Source of the DNA: Candidatus Eiseniibacteriota bacterium
GTDB taxonomy: Bacteria; Eisenbacteria; RBG-16-71-46
Direction of reading: 5' to 3'
DNA length: 64,000 nucleotides
Assembly: GCA_031366795.1 (NCBI GenBank)
Contig: JANLOX010000245.1
Location: 1,691-65,690 of the forward strand
Shown here: piece by piece, positions 13,527-32,713 of the stretch
Position numbering within the stretch: the first letter of the stretch is position 1
Layout of the letters: each line of letters begins with the position of its first letter
The notes under the pieces: generated by a model
The model's database searches: none
Seen by the model: the letters and a program-made list of their open reading frames with translations, nothing else
What the model was told of the DNA's origin: nothing
Translations under genes and position numbers: made by a program

Positions 13527-13663
13527 GGGAACTCCAGGTCGGTAGGGTAGTGATTTGCCCGGTTTGGGGTCGCCGGCTCGCCCTACAAGGGTATCACGCC
13601 CAGCTTGCGGCCCGGTAGACTTGGCTGCGCCCCGGCGGCTGCGCTGAGGGGGCTGGTGTTTGG

Positions 13664-22205: not shown

Positions 22206-22469
22206 GGTGAGCGTGACGCGCCATCCTAATGCGATGGCGTTGCTTGGGCCAAGCCCCGCGTTCCGGTGGCGCATGGCACCGACTATGCAGTGTAGGGGTA
22301 CGAGACCTCGAAGGGTGCCATGCGTCCGCAGGGTCGACAGGCGTCCTGCCCTCGCGGCAAGGCGCACCTGTTGCATCCTGCGAACGGCAACTCCTCCTTG
22401 CCCCGGTTCGCAGGTCGGATCGTCCGATGCCTGATCAACCTGCCCGCAGTTCCAGAGGGGAATGCTTTC

Positions 22470-25400
22470 GTGCAGCGACGCTTGAGTAACGGGTGCCTTG
22501 CGGTTGTGGTGAGTCTCATGGTGCCTGCCTTAGCCGCGGCGGCCACCGTGCCGCCCCAGTTCGTCGATGAGAACATCGCTCCAGGATCGACGTTCACCGA
22601 CCCCACCGCGATCGCCTACCTGCCCGGGGGCCGGCTGCTCGTCGCGGAGAAGCGCGGCCGCGTCTACTCGATCACGCAGGGCGTCAAGAGCGCGAACCCC
22701 CTGTGGTCGCGCGAGAACGAAGTGATGAATGACGGCGACCGCGGCCTGCTGGGTCTCGCGGTCGATCCCAACTACGCCACCAACCACTACATCTACCTGC
22801 TGTACTCGGTCGACCCTGATTCGGACGGCGTCGACACCGCCCCCACGGACGACTTCGGCCGGCTCACGCGTTATCGCATCAGCTTCACCGACTCCACGAC
22901 CGTCGATGCCGCCTCACGCACAATCCTGATGGGCGTCAGCTGGCGCTATGGCCCCGTTCACTGCTTCAACTCGCATGCGGTGGGATCGCTGCGCTTTGGC
23001 GCAGACGGCAGCCTGCTGGTCTCGGCAGGCGATGGCGCCTCGTGGGCCACGACCGACGCGGGTGGGCTCGATGCGGGTGATTTCGGCGCGAGCGTCAACC
23101 AGACGGATCCCTACCAGGACATCGGTTCGTTCCGGGCGCAGTCGCTGAGCAGCCTCAACGGCAAGGTGCTGCGCATCAATCCCGCCAACGGCGCGGGTTA
23201 CCGCAGCAATCCCTACTTCGACGGCAATCCCTACTCGGTCCGCTCGCGCATCTGGGCGTATGGAATGCGCAACCCGTTCCGCTTCTGCGTCCGCCCTTCC
23301 ACCGGCGTTGCCGACACCTCGGCCGGAAATCCGGGCACGCTGTTCATCGGCGATGTGGGATGGGAGACATGGGAAGAAGTCAATGTGGTCACCGCACCCG
23401 GACCGAATTTCGGCTGGCCCTGCTATGAAGGCAACGGCACCCAGCCCGCGTACCAGGCCGCCAATCCTGCCCACAACGGTTGTGGCAGCAACGGCACCGC
23501 CGACAACCCGGCGATGCAGTCCTCCCCGCTGATGACGTGGCATCACTTGGATGCCGCGCTGGGTTCGCCGGCCGGCTTCGCGGGCAACTGCGTGATCGGT
23601 GGCATGTTTTACACCGCCACGAAATATCCCGCGGTCTATCGCGGCGGTTACTTCTTCGCGGATTTCGGCACCAACTGGATTCGCTGTGCCACGCTCAACG
23701 CCAGCAACCAGGTCGTCTCGGTGAGCGACTTCGCCACCGGCCTCACCGGCCCGGTCGACTTCGCGCCCGATCCCGTGACCGGTGATCTTGTCTACGTTGC
23801 CATCATGACCGGCGAAGTGCGGCGCATCCGCTTCACCGGCATCAATGGCAACGCGCCGCCGGTGGCCATGGGCGTAGCCAGTGTGAGCTACGGCACCTCG
23901 CCTCTGACCGTGAGCTTCTCGAGTGCGGGCACCTATGATCCGGAGGCGCAGCCGGTCACGGTGTCGTGGGCGTTCGGCGATGGTCCCTCGAGCAACATCC
24001 CAAACCCGAGTCACACCTACTTGTCGCCGGGGACTTACGCGGCGGTGCTCACCGCCGACGATGGGCAGGGGGGTGTCGGCCGCGACACCCTCATGATCGT
24101 GGTTGCCGGCTCGACCGCATTCCCTGCCTCCCCAGTGCTCGACTTGTTCAATCGCGCCGATGCCGCCTTGGCAACGCCCTGGACCGGCAACCTTACGGGA
24201 CTCACCGTAACGGCCAATGCCCTCGTCTCGAGCGGCGAATACTCCTCCGCCCTGTGGGGAACCGCCGCCTACGGCGTGAACCAGGAAGCCTACGTGACAC
24301 TCTCCACCGCATCGCCGCTGGCCACCGAGCAGGATCTGTTGCTCAAGGTGCAGGGTGCCGGGCCGGACGACGCCGCGATCGAAGTCTGGTACTCCGCTTC
24401 GTCCACCAGCGTCAACGTACTCACCTTCGCGCTCCAGCAGGGTTGGGTGCAACGCGGCGTGCTGTCTCCCATCAACTTCGGCCCGGGCGACCGTTTCGGC
24501 GCGCGCGCGTTGGCGAATGGCGATCTGCAAGTGTTCAGCGGGCGCGACCTGCTCGGCACGGTGAGCCTCGGCGATTGGCCATTCGCGCGGCGCGGCGGAC
24601 GCATTGGGTGTTCGTTCACCGATGCCGGTGGTTCACGCTTCGACGATTTTGGCGGTGGCGACTCCAACCTCGGCGTCAGCGCCGCGCCCGTCGTACACGT
24701 GCTCATGCCCAATGGCGGCGAAGCATGGACGGGCGGCACGGCCCACGCCATCACATGGAATGCGACGGACGACTTTGGCGTTACCTCGGTCGATGTCGCC
24801 TATCGGGAAGCCGCGAGCCCCGCGTGGCTTCCGCTGTCACTCGGCCAGGCCAACAACGGCAGCTACACGTGGTTCGTCCAGAACACCCCGAGTTCGACCG
24901 TGAAGGTCCGGGTCACCGCGCGCGACGCTTCGGGCAACGCGGGGGTTGATTCGAGCGATGCCGTCATGTCGATTCTCGCGACCCCCGGTGGTCACGTCCC
25001 GACGACCCTGCGCGATTTCCACCAGCCGGGCACGCAACCGCTCGAGGCGGGAACCTTCAGCAGCCACGACGCGTGCTACAGCTGCCATGGCGGCTACAAC
25101 GCCGCGGTGGAACCCGGGCAGGGATTCCGCGGCACCATGATGGCCCAGGCGGCACGCGACCCGCTGTTCTACGCCTGCCTCGCGGTCGCCGAACAGGACG
25201 CGCCGTCGTCGGGCGACCTGTGCATCCGTTGTCACGCTCCGCTCGATTGGCTCGGCGGCCGCAGCCAGCCGACCAGTGGCGCCAACATCTCGACGCTGGG
25301 ACGCGACGGCGTCACCTGCGACTTCTGCCACCGCATGGTGGATCCCATTTACAAGCCCGGCGTCAGCCCGGCGGAGGACCAGACCGTGCTCGCCGGCATG

Positions 25401-26894
25401 CTTCCCGCACATGTGCCCACCAGCCGCTCGAATGGCCAGTATGTGGTCGACGCCAACACACGCCGCCGCGGCCCCTTCACCGACCCCGCGACACCGCACG
25501 CCTTCGTGGCGTCGCCGTTCCATTCATCGAGCGACTTGTGCGCGACCTGCCATGAAGTGTCGAACCCAGTGTTCGCCCGCGCGCACGGATCCAAGTACGT
25601 GGCGGGTCCATTCAATACCCCCGCCGACTCGATCAGCTCGGCGACGCTGATGCCGCTCGAGCGCACCTATAGCGAATGGAAAAACAGCGCATTCCCCACC
25701 GGCGTGTTCGCGCCGCAGTTCGCGGGCAACATTCCCGATGGCACGGTGCGCTCCTGCCAGGATTGCCACATGCGCGACGTGACCGGGCAGGGCTGTGACT
25801 ACGGCACGCCGCCGGTGCGCTCCAACCTGCCGATGCACGACATGATGGGCGGCAATGCCTGGGCGGGCGGCGTCATTGCCTCGATGTTCCCGAATGAAGT
25901 CGATGCCGCTGCGCTGGCCGCGGGTGCGGCGCGTGCGGTGTCGATGCTGCAGAAGGCCGCGACCGTGGATGTCCGCGTGCTGCCGCAGGGGGATAGCCTG
26001 CGCGCCACCGTGGTGGTCACGAACCACACCGGTCACAAGCTGCCGACGGGCTACCCGGAAGGCCGCAGGATGTGGATCCATCTCGTGGCGAAGGATGGCG
26101 CAGGCAACGTCGTCTACCAGTCGGGCGTTTACAACGCGTCGACGGGTGTGTTGGCGCGCGATGCCAAGGCGCGGATTTACGAAGCCGAACTCGGGCTCTC
26201 CCCCGCATTCGCGACGCAGCTGGGCCTGCCGGCGGGACCGAGCTTCCACTTCGCCTTGAACGACACGCTGTATAAGGACAACCGCATTCCGCCGGCGGGT
26301 TTCACCAACGCGGCGTACGATGTGTTCGGTGGCGCGCCGGTGGATCTCGAGGGGCCGACGCCGCGCTACGCCGACAACCAGAACTGGGACATCGCGACCT
26401 ACACGCTGCCCGCCGCCGCGGCCTCGGTGGTGGCGACGCTCTACTACCAGACGACCTCGAAGGAATACGTCGAATTCCTCAAATCGGAGAATACCACCAA
26501 CGCCGCAGGGCAGACCCTGCAGACGGCGTGGACCAGCAACGGCCGCGCGGCGCCGGTGGTGATGGCGAGTGACTCGACACGCACCCAGGTGCTCAGCGTC
26601 ACGGACTCAGCCTTGCCGCGCACCGTGGCGTTGCGCGCGCTGGCGAACCCGTTCCGCGGCCCCCTCAACCTGATGCTGTCGCTGCCGCGCTCCGCCAGCG
26701 TGCGCTTCGAAATCATCGATGTCGCAGGCCGCGTGGTGCGGCGAATGACGCCGCAGCGCGTCGCCGCGGGCGAGCAGCGCCTGAGTTGGGATGGCCGCGA
26801 TGCCGATGGTCACGCCGCCCATCCGGGCGCCTACTGGGCGAGCGTATGGGTGGATGACCAGCGCCTGGTGAAGAACGTCGTTTCATTGCGCTAG
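22470..26894 (+). CDS. secreted fusion protein: soluble quinoprotein-type glucose/sorbosone dehydrogenase beta-propeller + PKD domain + Ig-like domain + pentaheme c-type cytochrome domain + T9SS-type C-terminal sorting domain
   Basis: GTG start with GAGGGG Shine-Dalgarno and a signal peptide. GDVGWETWEEVN...NFGWPCYEG (GSDH). WAFGDGPSSNIPNPSHTY (PKD). CxxCH motifs CYSCH, CIRCH, CDFCH, CATCH, CQDCH at ~25072-25768. Tail ANPFRGPLNLMLSLP...GAYWASVWVDD. Confidence 0.8.
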   Translation: MQRRLSNGCLAVVVSLMVPALAAAATVPPQFVDENIAPGSTFTDPTAIAYLPGGRLLVAEKRGRVYSITQGVKSANPLWSRENEVMNDGDRGLLGLAVDPNYATNHYIYLLYSVDPDSDGVDTAPTDDFGRLTRYRISFTDSTTVDAASRTILMGVSWRYGPVHCFNSHAVGSLRFGADGSLLVSAGDGASWATTDAGGLDAGDFGASVNQTDPYQDIGSFRAQSLSSLNGKVLRINPANGAGYRSNPYFDGNPYSVRSRIWAYGMRNPFRFCVRPSTGVADTSAGNPGTLFIGDVGWETWEEVNVVTAPGPNFGWPCYEGNGTQPAYQAANPAHNGCGSNGTADNPAMQSSPLMTWHHLDAALGSPAGFAGNCVIGGMFYTATKYPAVYRGGYFFADFGTNWIRCATLNASNQVVSVSDFATGLTGPVDFAPDPVTGDLVYVAIMTGEVRRIRFTGINGNAPPVAMGVASVSYGTSPLTVSFSSAGTYDPEAQPVTVSWAFGDGPSSNIPNPSHTYLSPGTYAAVLTADDGQGGVGRDTLMIVVAGSTAFPASPVLDLFNRADAALATPWTGNLTGLTVTANALVSSGEYSSALWGTAAYGVNQEAYVTLSTASPLATEQDLLLKVQGAGPDDAAIEVWYSASSTSVNVLTFALQQGWVQRGVLSPINFGPGDRFGARALANGDLQVFSGRDLLGTVSLGDWPFARRGGRIGCSFTDAGGSRFDDFGGGDSNLGVSAAPVVHVLMPNGGEAWTGGTAHAITWNATDDFGVTSVDVAYREAASPAWLPLSLGQANNGSYTWFVQNTPSSTVKVRVTARDASGNAGVDSSDAVMSILATPGGHVPTTLRDFHQPGTQPLEAGTFSSHDACYSCHGGYNAAVEPGQGFRGTMMAQAARDPLFYACLAVAEQDAPSSGDLCIRCHAPLDWLGGRSQPTSGANISTLGRDGVTCDFCHRMVDPIYKPGVSPAEDQTVLAGMLPAHVPTSRSNGQYVVDANTRRRGPFTDPATPHAFVASPFHSSSDLCATCHEVSNPVFARAHGSKYVAGPFNTPADSISSATLMPLERTYSEWKNSAFPTGVFAPQFAGNIPDGTVRSCQDCHMRDVTGQGCDYGTPPVRSNLPMHDMMGGNAWAGGVIASMFPNEVDAAALAAGAARAVSMLQKAATVDVRVLPQGDSLRATVVVTNHTGHKLPTGYPEGRRMWIHLVAKDGAGNVVYQSGVYNASTGVLARDAKARIYEAELGLSPAFATQLGLPAGPSFHFALNDTLYKDNRIPPAGFTNAAYDVFGGAPVDLEGPTPRYADNQNWDIATYTLPAAAASVVATLYYQTTSKEYVEFLKSENTTNAAGQTLQTAWTSNGRAAPVVMASDSTRTQVLSVTDSALPRTVALRALANPFRGPLNLMLSLPRSASVRFEIIDVAGRVVRRMTPQRVAAGEQRLSWDGRDADGHAAHPGAYWASVWVDDQRLVKNVVSLR

Positions 26895-27214
26895 CCGGCC
26901 GCTCCAAACCCCCGATTGTTGCGTGGGCTTGTTGCGTTGATTTCGTAGCCCCCTGGGTGTGAGCGGCTGTGCTCGTCCGTGAAAGAGTGCGGTTCCATGC
27001 GCGGCGGCAACCCGCGTGTGAACTGGCCGCGCAGCCTGAGCATGGCGCGCAGCGCAGGCCGGGTCAGCGGCAGCGGCTGTAGGAAGCCGAACGAGCGCAA
27101 CCTATCGTCGTCCAGCATGGCACAGATGCCCTAGCGCCAGTCGGGAGTATGAGCCGCGGGGGCATCCCCACCCTTCGCAGGGATGCACCCGCACCCTTCG
27201 CAAAAACAAAGCTT

Positions 27215-27261
27215 TGACGGATCCCGGGTACTGGTGCTAGATTTTCAGCACATGCTGAAAA
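27215..27261 (+). promoter_or_regulatory. sigma-70-like promoter (TTGACG-17-TAGATT) overlapped by an 18-bp inverted repeat operator, TTTTCAGCA(ca)TGCTGAAAA, upstream of blaI
   Basis: -35 at 27215-27220 and -10 at 27238-27243. Perfect palindrome arms at 27242-27261, ~25 nt upstream of the blaI ATG. Confidence 0.45.
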
Positions 27262-27286
27262 AACAACAGTCGATCCGGAGGGGCGC

Positions 27287-27676
27287 ATGAAGGAACTCCA
27301 AACATTGAGCCGCCGTGAGCGTGAGATCATGGACATCGTGTTCGGCACCGGCGCCGCGTGTGCCACCGCCACCGAAGTGCGTGAACGCATGCCCGATGCG
27401 CCGAGCTATTCCGCGGTGCGCGCGACGATGCGCGTGCTTGAGCAGAAGGGCCTGCTCAAGCATGAACACGACGGCAAGCGCTATGTTTACCGGCCGACGC
27501 TGCATCCGCTGAAGGCGCGCAAGAACGCCATCACCCACCTCGTGAACACCTTCTTTGATGGCTCGGCCGCCGGAGCCTTGCTGACGCTGCTCGAACAGCC
27601 CGGCAATGACATCACGCCTGCCGAGTTGGACCGCATGGCGCAATGGATCGATCGCGCGCGAAAGGAAGGCCGCTAA
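27287..27676 (+). CDS. BlaI/MecI/CopY family transcriptional repressor
   Basis: Penicillinase_R-type winged helix (LSRREREIMDIVF...TATEV...YSAVRATMRVLEQKGLL). Stop overlaps the downstream start (TAATG). Confidence 0.85.
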   Translation: MKELQTLSRREREIMDIVFGTGAACATATEVRERMPDAPSYSAVRATMRVLEQKGLLKHEHDGKRYVYRPTLHPLKARKNAITHLVNTFFDGSAAGALLTLLEQPGNDITPAELDRMAQWIDRARKEGR

Positions 27677-30126
27677 TGGGTTCCTGGAGCTCCGCCGTGG
27701 GGTCAGCCGCGGATGCGGTGACTGCAGGTTCCGTGCTGCTGTTCCTCCTGCGCGTGACGATTGTCGCCGCGACCGGGCGCCTGCTGCTGGCCCTGTTGCC
27801 GAAGGCCTCAGCCGCGTCGCGCCACTTGGTCGCCACCGTGACGCTGGCGGCACTCGTGGCTTTGCCCATCGTGATGGCGGTGGTTCCCGCCTGGAAGTTG
27901 CCGATGCTTCCCCAGCGGGAGTCGTTCCGCGTTGCGGCTCCCGCCTTGTCGGTGACGACCGCGGAGACATTCGTTCGTCGCACCTACGATGAGGTGGATG
28001 GCGATGTTCCGTTCGCTGCCGCAACACCGCGTTCCACCCCTGCCGCGCCTCGTGCGGCGCTTCCCAGCGCAACGCCCCGCTCGCCCGCGATTCCCATGAC
28101 GTGGCCACTGGCGTTGACCCTCGTGGTGATTGGCGCCTCCGAGCTGATGCTGTTGCGCTGCGCGTTGTCGCTGGCGGCGGCTGCATGGTTCGCGCGCTGC
28201 GCGGACGACGTGACGGAGCCCGGGTTGATCGAGGCATTCGATGCGGCTCGCGGCCAGCTCAATGTAGGGCGCAACGTCAACCTGCGTATCACCTCGCGCG
28301 TTTCGGTTCCCGTCGTCGCGGGAGTATTCCATCCGACGCTGCTGCTGCCCCCCGAAGCGCGCGCCTGGAGTCGTGAGCGCCTGGACGTCGTGTTCCTCCA
28401 CGAGTTGGCTCACGTCCAGCGGCTCGACACCTTATCGCTGGTGGTGGCGCGCCTGGCCGGTGGACTCTATTGGTTCCATCCCATCGTTCGCGGGCTGGCG
28501 CTCGAGGCGCGACGCGATTGCGAACAGGCGTGTGACGATCGCGTGCTGGCGAGCGGGATCCGCGCTTCAGTCTATGCAGAGCATTTGCTGACCATCGCCC
28601 GCACAGCCGCGGTCCGCGATCCGTTGGGCACTGCGGTGCTGGCGATCGCGCGGCCGTCCAACCTCGAACAACGCCTGTCATCGATCCTGAGCTTGGGCGT
28701 TGAACGCGCCCCTGCCTCACGCGGCGCCGTCGCGCTCGCCGCGCTACTCGGTGCGCTGCTGCTGCTGCCGCTGGCCTCGGTACATGTCACCGCGGCGCCC
28801 GCTCACGCTGCGAGCAAGACTGACACGCTCGTTTGGCGCTCGAACCGCGTGGCGCCCGTCGCGCCGGTGGCATCACGCCGGCCTGCCCCGGCTTTGCGCG
28901 CGCTCGCACCACCGGCAGCTCCCGCAGCCCCTTCGGCGCCTGGCATCCCGGCTCCCGTGGGTAATTCATGGAGCAGCTCGTCAAACTCCGGGGGGGACAA
29001 CTACCCGGACCGTTCCGGACGCGATTGGTATTCACGCGCGCGCCGTAACTACGAGCGCGACCATTACGCCGAGTCGGGCGACCAGTACGAACGCGCGGCT
29101 CGCGCCGGCTACAACATCGAAACGGCGTTCTACGATGCCGCCTGCTCCTACTCCCTGGCGCACCAGACCGAACGCGCCTTCTCGGCGCTGCGTGACGCGG
29201 CCAATGCGGGTTGGGACGATGCGGACCAGATGAACTCGGACGATGACTTCGACTTCATCCGCCATGACCACCGCTTCAAGGAGATCGTCGAGGAGGTGCG
29301 TCACGCCGATCCCGATGAGGCGGATCGCAAGTCTGCGAGCGCAGAATTAAAGGCGCTGCGCTCGCAGCGCTCGAGCGACGCCAATGACTGGGGCAGCAGC
29401 GGCGTGTCCCTGATGCACTCGGGCGACCCGGCGAAGGCCGTGACTGCATTCGAGACCCAGATCAAGATCAGGCCAACGGCGAACGCGCTGTACAACCTGG
29501 CGTGCGCCCATGCGCTCAATGGCGACCACCGTGCGGCGTATGAGGCGCTGGAGCGTTCAATCGCCGCCGGATTCAGCAGCCCGGAGCACATGCGCAAGGA
29601 TGATGACCTCGAAGCCCTGCAGGGTGAGAAGCGCTTCGATGAACTCGTACGCATGACGGAGATGCTCGAGTTGAACGACGAGCACCTGAGCGACAACGAG
29701 CCGGCCGGCTGGAGCAAGACGCTGCCCCGCTACCAGCGGGTGTCGCAGCAATATCCCAACGTGGGCAGGGCGTGGTTCAACCTCGGCTATGCGCAACTTC
29801 GCGCGCGCCGGTTCGAGGACAGCCGCGCGTCGTTCGAACGGGGGCTGGAACTCGGCTACCGCCGCGGCACCTCGATGTACGACTTGGCCTGCGTCTCGGC
29901 GCAACTGCGCGAGCCGAGCGAAGCGGTGAAATGGCTGCAGCGCGCGAAGGCCGAAGGCATGGAGCTCGCCCTCTATCTCGCGACCGATCGCGACCTCGAC
30001 CCCATTCGCTCGGATTCCGGTTTCCGTGAATTCAAGCGCAGCGTTGGGGACGAAACCTTCGAGCGGGGACGCCGGACACTGAAGCAGAAGCTCGACAAGC
30101 TGGGACGCGCGCTCGACGATATGTAG
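27676..30126 (+). CDS. BlaR1-like M56 family membrane peptidase/sensor with C-terminal TPR domain (no penicillin-binding domain)
   Basis: TM helices; VVFLHELAHVQRLD (HExxH). Ala/Pro-rich linker, then >=4 TPR-like repeats. Confidence 0.8.
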   Translation: MGSWSSAVGSAADAVTAGSVLLFLLRVTIVAATGRLLLALLPKASAASRHLVATVTLAALVALPIVMAVVPAWKLPMLPQRESFRVAAPALSVTTAETFVRRTYDEVDGDVPFAAATPRSTPAAPRAALPSATPRSPAIPMTWPLALTLVVIGASELMLLRCALSLAAAAWFARCADDVTEPGLIEAFDAARGQLNVGRNVNLRITSRVSVPVVAGVFHPTLLLPPEARAWSRERLDVVFLHELAHVQRLDTLSLVVARLAGGLYWFHPIVRGLALEARRDCEQACDDRVLASGIRASVYAEHLLTIARTAAVRDPLGTAVLAIARPSNLEQRLSSILSLGVERAPASRGAVALAALLGALLLLPLASVHVTAAPAHAASKTDTLVWRSNRVAPVAPVASRRPAPALRALAPPAAPAAPSAPGIPAPVGNSWSSSSNSGGDNYPDRSGRDWYSRARRNYERDHYAESGDQYERAARAGYNIETAFYDAACSYSLAHQTERAFSALRDAANAGWDDADQMNSDDDFDFIRHDHRFKEIVEEVRHADPDEADRKSASAELKALRSQRSSDANDWGSSGVSLMHSGDPAKAVTAFETQIKIRPTANALYNLACAHALNGDHRAAYEALERSIAAGFSSPEHMRKDDDLEALQGEKRFDELVRMTEMLELNDEHLSDNEPAGWSKTLPRYQRVSQQYPNVGRAWFNLGYAQLRARRFEDSRASFERGLELGYRRGTSMYDLACVSAQLREPSEAVKWLQRAKAEGMELALYLATDRDLDPIRSDSGFREFKRSVGDETFERGRRTLKQKLDKLGRALDDM

Positions 30127-30365: not shown

Positions 30366-30764
30366 ATGAAGACCCTCAGCACGGAAGAGGCGGCCCGGCT
30401 GCTGCAGCTCAACGTAAAAGCGGTCCAACGCAGGGCCAGGGCGGGAACGCTCCCGGCGGTGCGGGTCGGCCGCAAGTGGCTGTTTCACGAGGACCAACTG
30501 CAGCGCCTGCTCGGCCGCGCCACAAATGACGCCTCGGCTCCGGTGCTCGAACTGAGCGCCCGCAACCGGCTCAAGGGAACCATCACGCGACTCCACGTCG
30601 ATGGCCTGATGGCGGAGGTCCTGTTGCGCATCGGCGACCAGGAACTGGTGGCGATCATCACGCGCTCTTCATGCGAGCGGATGGGTCTCGAGGTGGGCGC
30701 CGAAGTGTTCGCCGTCATCAAGTCCACCGAAGTGATGATCGGGCGGCTGGGGCGCGACGCGTGA
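30366..30764 (+). CDS. HTH (excisionase/MerR-like) + TOBE (molybdate-binding Mop) domain regulator
   Basis: HTH: LLQLNVKAVQRRARAGTLPAVRVGRKWLF. TOBE: NRLKGTITRLHVDGLMAEVLLRIGDQELVAIIT...VFAVIKSTEVMIG. Confidence 0.7.
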   Translation: MKTLSTEEAARLLQLNVKAVQRRARAGTLPAVRVGRKWLFHEDQLQRLLGRATNDASAPVLELSARNRLKGTITRLHVDGLMAEVLLRIGDQELVAIITRSSCERMGLEVGAEVFAVIKSTEVMIGRLGRDA

Positions 30765-30810
30765 CGCCTCGGGCGTTGAGCGCATCGCGATGAGATTGCG
30801 GGCGACCGCT

Positions 30811-30848
30811 GGCGCGGGACGCGCGGGACGCGCGGGATGCGCGGGACG
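30811..30848 (+). repeat. tandem 9-bp repeat (cgcgggacg x4, one variant) between the TOBE gene and modB
   Basis: gcgcgggacg cgcgggacgc gcgggatgcg cgggacgcga read directly from the sequence. Confidence 0.5.
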
Positions 30849-30864
30849 CGACGCCTCGAGCTGG

Positions 30865-31662
30865 ATGGTGCTGTCGGTGTGCGCCAGCGGACTGTTGCTC
30901 GTGTTCCTGGGGCTGCCCTTTGTCAGCCTGCTGTTGCGCGCCTCACCCTCACAACTGCTTGAGCATCTCACCCACCCCACGGTCTTGTCGGCCCTGCGTT
31001 TGAGTCTTGTGACCGCAGCGAGTTCGACGCTGTTGACCGTGGTGTTCGGCACCCCGCTCGCCTGGCTGCTGGCCACACGCGAGTTCCGGGGCAAACGTGT
31101 CATCGAAACGCTGGTCGACCTGCCGATGGTCCTGCCACCCACCGTGGCGGGCTTCGCCTTGCTCCTGGCTTTTGGCCGCATGGGGCTGGCGGGACGCGCG
31201 CTCGATGCAGTGGGCATCCACCTGCCCTTCACGACACTGGGAGTGGTGGCGGCCCAGTTGTTCATGTCCGTGCCCTTCTACGTGTCCCCCGCGCGCGCGG
31301 GGTTCGCCGCGGTGGACCGCCGCTACCTCGATGCGGCGGCAACGCTCGGCGCTTCGGAAACCTTCCGCTTCACCCGCGTGGTGCTGCCGCTCGCGCGTCC
31401 CGCGCTGATTGCCGGCATCGCCATGGCGACGGCGCGCGCCTTGGGCGAGTTCGGCGCCACCATCATGTTCGCCGGCAACCTCCCCGGCACGACGCAGACC
31501 ATGCCGCTCGCGGTCTATGTCGCGATGAATTCCGATCTCGATACCGCCATCGTGCTTGCCATCCTGCTGTTGGTGATGTCGTTCACCCTGTTGCTGGGTC
31601 TACGCGCCTCGCCTTCGACCTTCCTGTGGAACCGCGGCCGTGCTGCAAGTCCAGCTTCGTAA
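30865..31662 (+). CDS. modB: molybdate ABC transporter permease
   Basis: Aligns with E. coli ModB from the first TM onward (LPPTVAGFALLLAFGRMG...ARALGEFGATIMFAGNLPG). Alternative start at 30790 would read through the tandem repeat. Confidence 0.8.
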   Translation: MVLSVCASGLLLVFLGLPFVSLLLRASPSQLLEHLTHPTVLSALRLSLVTAASSTLLTVVFGTPLAWLLATREFRGKRVIETLVDLPMVLPPTVAGFALLLAFGRMGLAGRALDAVGIHLPFTTLGVVAAQLFMSVPFYVSPARAGFAAVDRRYLDAAATLGASETFRFTRVVLPLARPALIAGIAMATARALGEFGATIMFAGNLPGTTQTMPLAVYVAMNSDLDTAIVLAILLLVMSFTLLLGLRASPSTFLWNRGRAASPAS

Positions 31663-32713
31663 GCGGCTGGGCGCGTTCGAGCTCGAGGCGAGCTTCGAGG
31701 CCGCCCTGCCCGGCACGCTCGTGCTGGTCGGTGAGAGCGGCTCGGGCAAGTCCACACTGCTGAAGTTGCTGGCGGGATTGCAGGAACCCGACGCCGGTTT
31801 CATTCGGCTGGACGGGACCGCCGCGGTCGATGTGGCGAGCGGAGCGTGGCAACCGGCGCGCCTGCGACGGATCGGCTACGTCGCCCAGGACTACGCGCTG
31901 TTTCCCCACCTGCGTGTGCGCGACAATGTCGCATTCGGCCTGCGCGCCACGGGCGTGCTGCGCTACGAGGTGGCGGCGCGCGTGGAGCGCACGCTCGGCC
32001 GCCTGGGGCTCGCGGCGCTGGCCTCGCGGTGGCCGCACGAATTGTCCGGGGGCCAGCAGCAACGCGTGGCGTTGGCGCGGGCACTGGTGATCGAGCCGCG
32101 GTTATTGCTGCTCGATGAACCCCTCGCGGCGCTCGACCAGCGGACCCGCCGCGAAGTGCGGCGCGAGTTGCGCGTGCTGATGAGCGAACTGCCGTGTCTC
32201 ACGATCCTCGTCACGCACAGCCCGGCGGATGCCGTGGCGCTCGGGGAGCAGATCGTCGTGCTCGAGGGCGGGCGCATCACGCAGGCCGGCTCGCGCCAGG
32301 ACATGCTGCAGCGGCCACGCACGCCTTACGTGGCGGAGTTCCTCGGCACCAATTTGTTCGCGGCACGGGTCGTCCCGGGAGCCGTCGGGGCGCCGGTGCG
32401 GCTGGACGTCGATGGCGCCGAACTCGCGGTCGCCGATGGCGCGGAAGTGGGCGACGTCATGGCGGTCGTGGATCCGCGCGACATCACCCTGTCGCGCGAG
32501 CGGCCCTCGGGCAGCGCCCAGAATGTGCTGCCCGGCGCTGTCATCGAGTTGACGCCCGAGCCGCCGAGCGGCGATCGCGTGCGCGTTGCGCTGGCGACGC
32601 GACCACCGCTGGTGGCCGAGATCACCCATGCCGCCGCCGAGCGGCTGGGACTGGCGCCGGGCGTGCCGGTGTTCGCTTCGTTCAAGGCGACCGGCGTGCG
32701 CGTGTTCCGCTAG
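31640..32713 (+). CDS. modC: molybdate ABC transporter ATP-binding protein with C-terminal TOBE domain
   Basis: Walker A GESGSGKST, LSGGQQQRVALARAL, Walker B LLLDEP. C-terminal Mop/TOBE segment. Confidence 0.85.
   Translation: MLQVQLRKRLGAFELEASFEAALPGTLVLVGESGSGKSTLLKLLAGLQEPDAGFIRLDGTAAVDVASGAWQPARLRRIGYVAQDYALFPHLRVRDNVAFGLRATGVLRYEVAARVERTLGRLGLAALASRWPHELSGGQQQRVALARALVIEPRLLLLDEPLAALDQRTRREVRRELRVLMSELPCLTILVTHSPADAVALGEQIVVLEGGRITQAGSRQDMLQRPRTPYVAEFLGTNLFAARVVPGAVGAPVRLDVDGAELAVADGAEVGDVMAVVDPRDITLSRERPSGSAQNVLPGAVIELTPEPPSGDRVRVALATRPPLVAEITHAAAERLGLAPGVPVFASFKATGVRVFR

What the first reader, a model, noticed from the sequence alone, without database searches (positions are those of the whole stretch)
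27215..30126. blaI / blaR1-like(TPR) signal-transduction pair with a promoter-overlapping perfect palindrome
A BlaI-family repressor gene overlaps (TAATG) a BlaR1-type M56 membrane metalloprotease gene (HELAH). The M56 protein's extracytoplasmic sensor is a long Ala/Pro linker plus a TPR domain rather than a penicillin-binding domain.

Just upstream, a TTGACG-17-TAGATT promoter is overlapped at its -10 by an 18-bp inverted repeat, TTTTCAGCA-ca-TGCTGAAAA. Its half-sites (GCAnnTGC inside TTT/AAA flanks) differ from the classical TACA/TGTA BlaI/MecI operator. The signal sensed by the TPR module is unknown.
Basis: partly seen in the sequence, partly recalled or inferred. Interest (0 to 1): 0.55.

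Follow-up and report, generated by a model that had tools for sequence, protein, structure and literature searches.

The report
BlaI/BlaR1-like pair with TPR sensor
This is a repressor plus membrane-protease signalling pair of the antibiotic-sensing BlaI/BlaR1 type whose sensor is a repeat (TPR) domain of unknown ligand, and the "palindrome" in its promoter is the middle of a larger, widely conserved two-part repressor binding site.

Summary
A 129-aa BlaI/MecI/CopY-family gene (27287-27676) overlaps by one base an 816-aa M56 (BlaR1-type) metalloprotease gene (27676-30126). The protease has HELAH, a disordered Ala/Pro linker and a C-terminal TPR domain instead of a penicillin-binding domain.

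The promoter is TTGACG-18-TAGATT (18 nt, not 17), with a TG extended -10. The perfect 9-2-9 palindrome (27242-27261) is unique in the window.

Comparison with about 130 homologous blaI promoters changes the reading. The conserved unit is a 16-bp dyad, TGCT-N8-AGCA. Here it occurs twice, 2 bp apart (27235-27250 and 27253-27268).
- Dyads occur alone in 31 promoters; the junction motif never occurs without a dyad.
- Dyad 1 contains the -10 box.

The M56-TPR architecture recurs in more than 50 loci, with named MAGs mainly Acidobacteriota (Thermoanaerobaculia closest). It always forms a stand-alone bicistron with no linked target gene.

The likely mechanism is BlaR1-like: a periplasmic signal acts on the TPR domain, the protease cleaves the repressor, and the operon plus unlinked targets are derepressed. 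The signal and regulon remain unknown.

Verdict: a new variant of a known kind, of moderate interest.

The parts
27214..27219 (+). -35 hexamer TTGACG
   Evidence: Promoter scan. A TTGAC/TTGCC hexamer sits at the same distance in orthologous promoters.
27235..27243 (+). Extended -10: TG-c-TAGATT (TG 27235-27236, hexamer 27238-27243)
   Evidence: One search reports an 18-nt spacer and TG before the second hexamer. The TA..T positions are highly conserved in 46 M56-TPR promoters.
27235..27250 (.). Operator dyad 1: TGCTAGATTTTCAGCA (TGCT-N8-AGCA); contains the -10 box
   Evidence: Exact match to the dyad. It is conserved in L001-L003 and across the M56-TPR clade.
27253..27268 (.). Operator dyad 2: TGCTGAAAAAACAACA (fourth half-site AACA instead of AGCA)
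   Evidence: One mismatch to the dyad. The 18-bp register relative to dyad 1 is found in 26 of 33 paired dyads. The CAACA variant is conserved in L001, L002 and L003.
27242..27261 (.).
   Evidence: Searches confirm it. One search shows it is never found without a flanking full dyad.
27277..27283 (+). Shine-Dalgarno-like GGAGGGG upstream of the blaI ATG
   Evidence: Read from the sequence. GGAGG is also present in L001-L003.
27287..27676 (+). BlaI/MecI/CopY-family repressor gene (129 aa)
   Evidence: PF03965 E=2.3e-21. A profile of 20 orthologues hits MecI 1OKR/1SAX at E=5.8e-11 and BlaI 1SD4/1XSD.
27676..28785 (+). M56 membrane metalloprotease module (residues 1-370): four hydrophobic segments, with the protease between TM3 and TM4
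   Evidence: PF05569 E=1.3e-29. The profile hits S. aureus BlaR1 8EXS at E=2.1e-10. Hydropathy and the AF2 model show the four segments.
28399..28413 (+). HELAH zinc-binding and catalytic motif (H242, E243, H246)
   Evidence: Invariant in 14 homologues. It aligns to BlaR1 H201/E202/H205.
28522..28536 (+). E283-x3-D287 (EQACD), the third zinc ligand motif
   Evidence: Invariant in 14 homologues. It aligns to BlaR1 E242..D246.
28786..29016 (+). Ala/Pro-rich linker (residues 371-447) after TM4, predicted disordered
   Evidence: The A+P fraction is 0.36 over residues 376-455. pLDDT is below 50 for residues 367-445. Length and sequence vary among homologues.
29017..30126 (+). TPR sensor domain (residues 448-816): three modules of TPR pairs capped by a 'TPR end-of-group' motif, then a long C-terminal helix
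   Evidence: Pfam TPR_1/2/8/16 and PF22316. NF047558 gives three stretches at E=1.4e-40. The model is all-helical with pLDDT mostly above 90. Foldseek returns only generic TPR proteins.

Best explanation
The locus is an autoregulated, bicistronic BlaI/BlaR1-type proteolytic signalling module.

**Shown**
- The repressor has the BlaI/MecI winged-helix plus dimerisation fold family.
- The membrane partner has four hydrophobic segments and an intact gluzincin site (HELAH and E-x3-D) between TM3 and TM4.
- After TM4 come about 77 disordered residues and a 370-residue TPR solenoid.
- The promoter carries two tandem 16-bp dyads (TGCT-N8-AGCA) 2 bp apart.
- Dyad 1 embeds the extended -10 box. Dyad 2 covers roughly +1 to +18.
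- This arrangement is conserved in orthologues while the surrounding DNA is not.

**Inferred**
- BlaI-like dimers occupy the dyads, most likely one dimer per 16-bp dyad and two dimers side by side. They block RNA polymerase.
- By analogy with BlaR1 (N-out/C-out topology), the TPR domain lies in the periplasm and binds an unknown ligand, probably a protein or peptide.
- Ligand binding activates the cytoplasm-facing protease. The protease cuts the repressor in its dimerisation helix, at the position aligned to BlaI N101|F102 (here T100|L101).
- Cleavage derepresses the operon, giving positive feedback, and also derepresses unlinked genes that carry the same dyad.
For: **Family assignment**
- assign both proteins and map the catalytic residues.
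- Searches show H242, E243, H246, E283 and D287 invariant.
- Searches give the four TM-like segments, the disordered linker and a confident TPR domain.

**Gene arrangement**
- The blaI stop overlaps the M56 start in the window and in L001-L003, L204 and L206. In L205 the two genes are adjacent.

**Operator**
- The -35, -10 and dyads are conserved in orthologues at 55-79% protein identity, while the spacer and flanks diverge.
- AT-rich dyads occur upstream of 61 of 74 blaI homologues, with 96 hits in 12 kb against 27 in the other 457 kb.
- The dyad spacing is strictly 8 bp, and dyad-only sites exist.
- A genome-wide scan for the double dyad returned 120 stretches. Sixty lie directly upstream of blaI-like genes in Acidobacteriota, Gemmatimonadota, Planctomycetota and Myxococcota.
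- Operator type covaries with the recognition helix. TGCT-type promoters go with SYSAVRATLRVLEQKG. GACA..TGTC-type promoters go with TYTAVRGMLRLLESKG.
- Single dyads sit just before the ribosome-binding site of HEAT-repeat genes in sister systems. Double dyads precede S41, TonB_C and CarboxypepD_reg genes in other MAGs.

**Literature**
- BlaR1 cleaves BlaI directly at N101/F102 and has an N-out/C-out topology with a cytoplasm-facing protease (PMC9834060).
Against: - No binding, cleavage or transcription-start data exist for this or any M56-TPR system.
- The canonical family operator is TACANNTGTA, with half-sites 6 bp apart (PMC1935004, PMC7253601). That geometry matches the junction AGCA-NN-TGCT rather than TGCT-N8-AGCA, so the assignment of one dimer per dyad is not secure.
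- Symmetry at the variable positions does not discriminate between the two readings.
- The BlaI scissile pair N-F is not conserved; the aligned residues are T-L.
- No second operator copy exists in the 64-kb window or in 143 kb around 17 M56-TPR loci. A regulon beyond autoregulation is therefore unproven.
- Part of the promoter set (60 loci) was selected using the double-dyad pattern itself.
Confidence: 0.7

Rival explanations
1. The 20-bp palindrome TTTTCAGCA-ca-TGCTGAAAA is itself the operator. One repressor dimer binds it in the canonical BlaI/CopY geometry (xxCA-NN-TGxx), and the outer TGCT/AACA half-sites are accessory or incidental.
For: - The characterised family members bind a central TACANNTGTA (PMC1935004), and CopY binds a 16-bp RNYKACANNTGTMRNY (PMC7253601). 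AGCA-NN-TGCT has the same frame and differs from ACA-NN-TGT by one base per half-site.
- In the window's own clade the junction is the most symmetric element. It is 9/9 in the window and in L002, with a paired T>C / A>G change.
- The 2-bp gap is by far the commonest (88 of about 109 occurrences).
Against: - The junction motif never occurs without a full flanking dyad, while 31 promoters have a dyad and no junction.
- Gap lengths of 1, 3, 4 and 5 bp, and dyad separations of 44-45 bp, also occur.
- The outer half-sites are as conserved as the inner ones.
- Single dyads lie in front of putative target genes.
Confidence: 0.2
2. The palindrome acts at the RNA level, as a 5'-UTR hairpin or attenuator, or is a terminator remnant, rather than as a DNA operator.
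For: The sequence can form an 8-bp hairpin with a 4-nt loop in the minimum-free-energy fold.
Against: - Folding energy is not unusual (z = -0.69; 45 of 200 shuffles fold as well).
- There is no Rfam match.
- The predicted transcription start lies inside the palindrome.
- Conserved half-sites extend outside the hairpin, and single dyads elsewhere have a different stem geometry.
- No U-run follows the hairpin.
Confidence: 0.03
3. The dyads are bound by a different transcription factor, or are simply AT-rich promoter elements shared by descent, and the BlaI-like protein regulates other DNA.
For: - TGCTA followed by AT-rich sequence resembles an extended -10 box (TGnTAnnnT), so part of the conservation could reflect the promoter itself.
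- No binding data exist.
Against: - The dyad is symmetric well beyond promoter needs.
- It is found at varied positions relative to -35/-10.
- It tracks blaI across phyla.
- It switches to a different palindrome exactly where the recognition helix changes.
Confidence: 0.05

Closest known systems
BlaI-BlaR1 / MecI-MecR1 of Staphylococcus aureus and Bacillus licheniformis
   Same: - A winged-helix repressor is paired with a four-TM M56 zinc protease carrying HExxH and E-x3-D.
- The sensor domain follows the last TM segment.
- The repressor's own promoter carries paired palindromic operators overlapping core promoter elements (PMC1935004, PMC9834060).
   Different: - The sensor is a TPR solenoid on a long disordered linker, not an acylatable penicillin-binding domain.
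- There is no divergent resistance gene.
- The operator half-sites are TGCT/AGCA with 8-bp and 2-bp spacers, not TACANNTGTA.
- The aligned cleavage position is T-L, not N-F.
- The score against NCBIfam blaR1_generic is 67 bits, against a cut-off of 400.
Atypical BlaIR systems without a beta-lactam sensor: C. difficile CenIR, P. aeruginosa PvmSR, mycobacterial BlaI/BlaR
   Same: These are BlaI-family repressor plus M56 protease pairs that lack the penicillin-binding domain and sense an unknown signal. Their roles are unrelated to beta-lactamase induction (PMC13492132; bioRxiv 10.64898/2026.08.03.742534).
   Different: Those proteases end in short or unstructured tails, or have no sensor at all. 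Here the sensor is a large, confidently folded three-module TPR domain, and the host lineage is an uncultured Acidobacteriota-like soil bacterium.
CopY/CopR copper repressors and their cop box
   Same: CopY belongs to the same repressor family (TIGR02698 hit, 37 bits). Its minimal operator is 16 bp and is often present twice at the promoter (PMC7253601). That is the same length as the dyad found here.
   Different: The window protein has no C-terminal CxC metal site; it ends ...RARKEGR. The score is far below the cut-off of 122. The conserved bases lie at the outer edge of the 16-mer (TGCTA) rather than at its centre (KACA).
M56 proteins with HEAT, TonB_C/CarboxypepD_reg, S41-PDZ or ankyrin C-termini in Acidobacteriota and Gemmatimonadota
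   Same: - They share the same M56 N-terminal module at 30-49% identity.
- They have the same upstream blaI gene.
- They use the same TGCT-N8-AGCA operator family.
   Different: The C-terminal domain differs. Some of these systems have an operator-preceded target gene next door, such as a stand-alone HEAT protein. The TPR branch does not.

Membership tests
BlaI/MecI/CopY repressors (PF03965) | About 125-aa protein with an N-terminal winged helix and C-terminal dimerisation helices | tested here: met
   PF03965 E=2.3e-21, covering 7-122 of 129 residues. The orthologue profile matches MecI 1OKR over residues 4-121 at E=5.8e-11.
BlaI/MecI/CopY repressors (PF03965) | Gene adjacent to, and co-transcribed with, an M56 protease gene | tested here: met
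   TAATG overlap in the window. The same arrangement occurs in L001-L003 and L204-L206. Nearly all 80 M56 loci have a blaI gene upstream.
BlaI/MecI/CopY repressors (PF03965) | Canonical operator core TACANNTGTA | tested here: not met
   There is no TACA/TGTA in 27200-27290. The conserved motif is TGCT-N8-AGCA, present twice. A sister clade does carry GACAT-N-ATGTC.
BlaI/MecI/CopY repressors (PF03965) | Binds its own promoter as a dimer | not testable with these tools
   Support is comparative only: conserved dyads overlap the -10 box, and operator type covaries with the recognition helix.
BlaI/MecI/CopY repressors (PF03965) | N101|F102 scissile bond in the dimerisation helix | tested here: not met
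   The aligned residues are T100-L101. L101 is invariant among 20 orthologues.
CopY/TcrY copper repressors (TIGR02698) | C-terminal CxC metal-binding motifs; score above the equivalog cut-off | tested here: not met
   The score is 37 bits against a cut-off of 121.95. There are no C-terminal cysteines.
Peptidase M56 (BlaR1/MecR1) | HExxH plus a downstream E-x3-D gluzincin site | tested here: met
   H242, E243, H246, E283 and D287 are invariant. They align to BlaR1 H201, E202, H205, E242 and D246.
Peptidase M56 (BlaR1/MecR1) | Four TM segments with the protease loop between TM3 and TM4 | tested here: met
   Hydrophobic segments lie at about residues 14-40, 47-70, 143-175 and 349-368. Membrane orientation itself was not tested.
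Peptidase M56 (BlaR1/MecR1) | C-terminal penicillin-binding (class D beta-lactamase-like) sensor domain | tested here: not met
   The C-terminus matches only TPR families. blaR1_generic scores 67 against 400, and the match covers residues 173-371 only. The model is a TPR solenoid.
TPR proteins | Tandem 34-residue helix-turn-helix repeats forming a solenoid | tested here: met
   TPR_1 E=7.7e-12, TPR_2, TPR_8 and TPR_16 hit. NF047558 gives three stretches. The region has 22 helices with pLDDT above 90. The top Foldseek hits are consensus TPR and OGT TPR structures.

The most novel reading that the evidence does not exclude
The M56-TPR/BlaI pair may be one branch of a large, uncharacterised radiation of envelope-signal proteolytic switches in Acidobacteriota, Gemmatimonadota and neighbouring phyla.
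- These systems share a non-canonical operator code: TGCT-N8-AGCA, usually as an 18-bp-register pair.
- Their sensor domains may be paralogous to the products they regulate. Examples are M56-HEAT with a dyad-preceded stand-alone HEAT gene, and dyads before S41, TonB_C and TPR-S41 genes. This parallels BlaR1, where a penicillin-binding sensor regulates penicillin-binding products.
- On this reading, the TPR branch senses a periplasmic protein or peptide ligand and controls unlinked TPR or envelope genes.
Probability: 0.3. Interest if true: 0.6.

Novelty: new variant of a known kind. Interest (0 to 1): 0.4.

Why it matters
BlaI/BlaR1 is the textbook one-step proteolytic signalling pathway. Recent work (CenIR, PvmSR, mycobacterial BlaIR) shows that most family members do not sense beta-lactams and that their signals are unknown.

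This locus and its more than 50 relatives offer three things:
- a well-folded, recombinantly tractable candidate sensor, the three-module TPR domain;
- a sharply defined candidate operator, usable to compute regulons in any complete genome of these poorly studied soil phyla;
- a clear, testable question about how a BlaI-type dimer reads half-sites 12 bp apart rather than 6 bp apart.

No resistance gene is linked to the pair, so 'beta-lactamase regulator' annotations of such genes are probably misleading.

Tried and rejected
- **Other operator copies in the window.** I searched for the palindrome with up to 3 mismatches and for the dyad with up to 2 mismatches. Only the promoter copies turned up. 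A weak 1-mismatch site at 13662 lies at the end of a long minus-strand ORF and was set aside.
- **Extra dyads near M56-TPR genes.** None were found in ±3 kb of the metagenome loci or in 143 kb of 17 MAG or contig loci.
- **A conserved neighbouring target gene.** The flanks differ in every lineage. The mod genes downstream are shared only with close relatives.
- **Symmetry and covariation at variable operator positions.** This was meant to decide between the dyad and junction models and was inconclusive. Symmetry was about 40-55% in both frames.
- **Single-sequence phmmer against PDB.** Neither protein gave a hit. Profiles were needed.
- **Foldseek of the full model against PDB.** It returned only generic TPR proteins with poor rmsd and gave no ligand clue.
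- **RNA-structure and Rfam explanations.** Both were rejected.
- **Literature searches.** Nothing was found on M56-TPR or on this operator.
- **Genome-collection scan.** Half were chance matches in coding DNA of AT-rich genomes, for example a conserved GVGKSAIAEGLA-coding stretch. It cannot be used to count sites per genome.
Full report
**1. Checking the observation**

- A 129-codon ORF (27287-27676) matches the penicillinase-repressor family (PF03965, E=2.3e-21).
- Its TAA shares one base with the ATG of an 816-codon ORF (27676-30126). That ORF matches Peptidase_M56 (E=1.3e-29) and carries HELAH at residues 242-246.
- The nearly identical public protein P0001 is also 816 aa. Homologues begin MGSW..., which fixes the start at 27676 rather than at the in-frame ATG at 27643.
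- The C-terminal 370 residues hit several TPR families and the NCBIfam 'TPR end-of-group' domain three times (E=1.4e-40).
- The promoter scan returns TTGACG (27214-27219), an 18-nt spacer and TAGATT (27238-27243), with TG in the extended -10 position. The spacer is 18, not 17.
- The inverted repeat TTTTCAGCA/TGCTGAAAA (27242-27250 and 27253-27261) is perfect.
- It is the only match in the 64-kb window even at three mismatches, with none expected by chance. The window is 66.6% G+C.

**2. What the proteins are**

*Repressor.* A profile of 20 orthologous repressors finds MecI (1OKR/1SAX, E=5.8e-11), B. licheniformis and S. aureus BlaI, and M. tuberculosis BlaI (2G9W) over nearly their full length.
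- The residue pair aligned to the BlaI/MecI scissile bond N101|F102 (PMC9834060) is T100-L101. L101 is invariant among the orthologues.
- The protein lacks the CxC motifs of CopY and scores far below the CopY equivalog cut-off.

*Protease.* A profile of the M56 N-terminal region finds S. aureus BlaR1 (8EXS, E=2.1e-10).
- H242/E243/H246 align to H201/E202/H205.
- E283..D287 align to E242..D246.
- All five residues are invariant in 14 homologues.
- Hydropathy and an AlphaFold2 model (mean pLDDT 75.9) give four membrane-like helices, at about residues 14-40, 47-70, 143-175 and 349-368, with the protease between the third and fourth.
- Two segments are disordered: residues 73-139 and 367-445. The second is the Ala/Pro-rich linker.
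- An all-helical TPR region spans residues 448-815 with pLDDT mostly above 90.

Structure search returns only generic TPR proteins. By homology with BlaR1, which is N-out/C-out with a cytoplasm-facing protease (PMC9834060), the TPR domain should be periplasmic. This is an inference.

**3. How common the architecture is**

- The protein search returned 15 proteins with the same M56-plus-TPR layout at 31-99% identity. Some are annotated 'M56 family metallopeptidase [Thermoanaerobaculia bacterium]' or '.../tetratricopeptide (TPR)'.
- It also returned many M56 proteins with HEAT, TonB_C/CarboxypepD_reg, S41-PDZ or ankyrin C-termini.
- A metagenome scan confirmed 464 related stretches and kept 80 loci.
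- 53 loci in hand encode a homologue of the TPR domain.
- Nearly every locus has a blaI homologue immediately upstream.
- The closest named genomes, with repressors 57-59% identical, are Thermoanaerobaculia MAGs and Candidatus Gilichinskyi gelida, which is also Thermoanaerobaculia (Acidobacteriota).
- The pair is a stand-alone bicistron. Its neighbours differ in every lineage examined.

**4. The operator**

In three orthologous contigs (M56 identity 79, 59 and 55%) the -35, the -10 and the palindrome region are conserved. The promoter spacer and the flanks are not. L002 has TTTCCAGCA-ca-TGCTGGAAA, a symmetric double change relative to the window.

Extending to all loci showed that the recurrent element is a 16-bp dyad, TGCT-N8-AGCA, with an AT-rich centre.
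- It lies upstream of 61 of 74 blaI homologues, and 35 of these have two copies.
- There are 96 hits in 12 kb of blaI-upstream DNA, against 27 in the remaining 457 kb.
- Successive dyads start 18 bp apart in 26 cases. Separations of 17, 19, 20 and 44-45 bp also occur.

In the window the two dyads are TGCTAGATTTTCAGCA (27235-27250) and TGCTGAAAAAACAACA (27253-27268).

A spacing census over 132 distinct promoters is the clearest test.
- TGCT-Nk-AGCA occurs 180 times at k=8 and almost never at any other k from 0 to 15.
- AGCA-Nk-TGCT peaks at k=2 (88) but also occurs at k=1, 3, 4 and 5.
- 86 promoters have both a dyad and the junction motif. 31 have a dyad only. None has the junction only.

In the 46 distinct M56-TPR promoters, all four half-sites are conserved. 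Positions 4-9 of dyad 1 double as the -10 hexamer. In one sub-clade the -10 is instead formed by the right half of dyad 1 (TAGCAT), so the overlap with the core promoter is maintained by different means.

**5. Evidence that the dyads are the repressor's sites**

Sixty lie directly upstream of a blaI-like gene, in Acidobacteriota, Gemmatimonadota, Planctomycetota, Myxococcota and a few Proteobacteria. Most of the rest are chance matches in coding DNA of AT-rich genomes.
- A separate repressor clade, about 45% identical, has two copies of TTGACAT-N-ATGTCAA instead. Its recognition helix reads TYTAVRGMLRLLESKG, where the TGCT-type reads SYSAVRATLRVLEQKG.
- In M56-HEAT sister loci a single dyad sits about 10 nt before the ribosome-binding site of a stand-alone HEAT-repeat gene downstream of the protease gene.
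- In other MAGs, double dyads precede genes for S41 peptidases, a TonB_C protein, a TPR-S41 protein and a 1271-aa CarboxypepD_reg protein. One of these is nearly identical to the blaI-linked operator of the same MAG.

**6. What remains open**

*Which half-sites does one dimer read?* The characterised members bind a central TACANNTGTA (PMC1935004), and CopY needs 16 bp, RNYKACANNTGTMRNY (PMC7253601).
- The junction AGCA-NN-TGCT has that geometry.
- The 16-bp dyad has that length and frame, but its conserved bases lie at the outer edge.
- Symmetry at the variable positions is similar in both frames.
- The comparative data favour the dyad as the unit: dyad-only sites, variable gaps and conserved outer half-sites. 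I put this at about two to one.

*What is regulated?* No further operator copy exists in the window or in 143 kb around 17 M56-TPR loci. The regulon and the signal are therefore unknown.

An RNA-level role is unlikely (z=-0.69; no Rfam match).

**7. Comparison with known systems and novelty**

The system works like BlaI/BlaR1 and belongs to both protein families. It fails three features of the canonical beta-lactam system: the penicillin-binding sensor, the TACANNTGTA operator and the N-F scissile pair.

It sits with the 'atypical BlaIR' systems now being described, CenIR (PMC13492132) and PvmSR (bioRxiv 10.64898/2026.08.03.742534). It differs from them in having a large folded TPR sensor. I found no paper on M56-TPR proteins or on this operator.

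It is a new variant of a known kind. I score interest at 0.4. The architecture is already present and annotated in public data, and its function is unproven. The operator definition and the breadth of the family make the open question of what non-beta-lactam BlaIR systems sense more tractable.

Noticed in passing
L043:5438-5453, L058:5344-5359, L069:4389-4404, L071:3901-3916, L079:5183-5198, L082:5304-5319: In sister loci whose M56 protein ends in HEAT repeats, a single TGCT-N8-AGCA dyad lies about 10 nt before the ribosome-binding site of a stand-alone 252-255-aa HEAT-repeat gene, just downstream of the protease gene. The sensor domain and the putative target are paralogous.
   Followed up: partly
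L144:3758-3792 (and L141:794-828, same MAG); L149:3329-3363; L151:5229-5263; L184:1824-1858; L158:938-972: Genuine-looking double dyads that are not next to blaI. They precede genes for a 1271-aa CarboxypepD_reg protein, S41 peptidases, a TonB_C protein and a TPR-S41 protein in Gemmatimonadota and Bryobacterales MAGs. These are possible regulon members of related systems.
   Followed up: partly
L047, L049, L050, L054, L055, L056, L060, L062, L066, L073 (about 60-130 nt upstream of blaI): A distinct blaI clade, about 45% identical, carries two tandem copies of TTGACAT-N-ATGTCAA instead of the TGCT dyads. Its recognition helix differs in step (VRGM/ES instead of VRAT/EQ).
   Followed up: partly
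window 22320-26894 (+): A 1524-aa ORF directly upstream has GSDH, PKD and Ig-like domains and five CxxCH haem-binding motifs. It ends in a FlgD_ig domain. It looks like a large secreted multihaem protein.
   Followed up: no
window 30366-32713 (+): Downstream lie an HTH_17-TOBE (ModE-like, molybdate-binding) regulator gene and then ABC permease and ATPase (TOBE) genes. This is a molybdate/tungstate uptake cluster. It is shared with close relatives only (L001, L003) and has no dyad upstream.
   Followed up: partly
window 27156-27202: A direct repeat GCATCCCCACCCTTCGCA / GCACCCGCACCCTTCGCA (23-bp register) overlaps a 13-nt inverted repeat just upstream of the -35. It is not conserved in L001.
   Followed up: no
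L204:6592-6625: In this Thermoanaerobaculia-like contig the second dyad overlaps the annotated blaI start codon (6609). Either the called start is too far upstream or the leader is very short.
   Followed up: no
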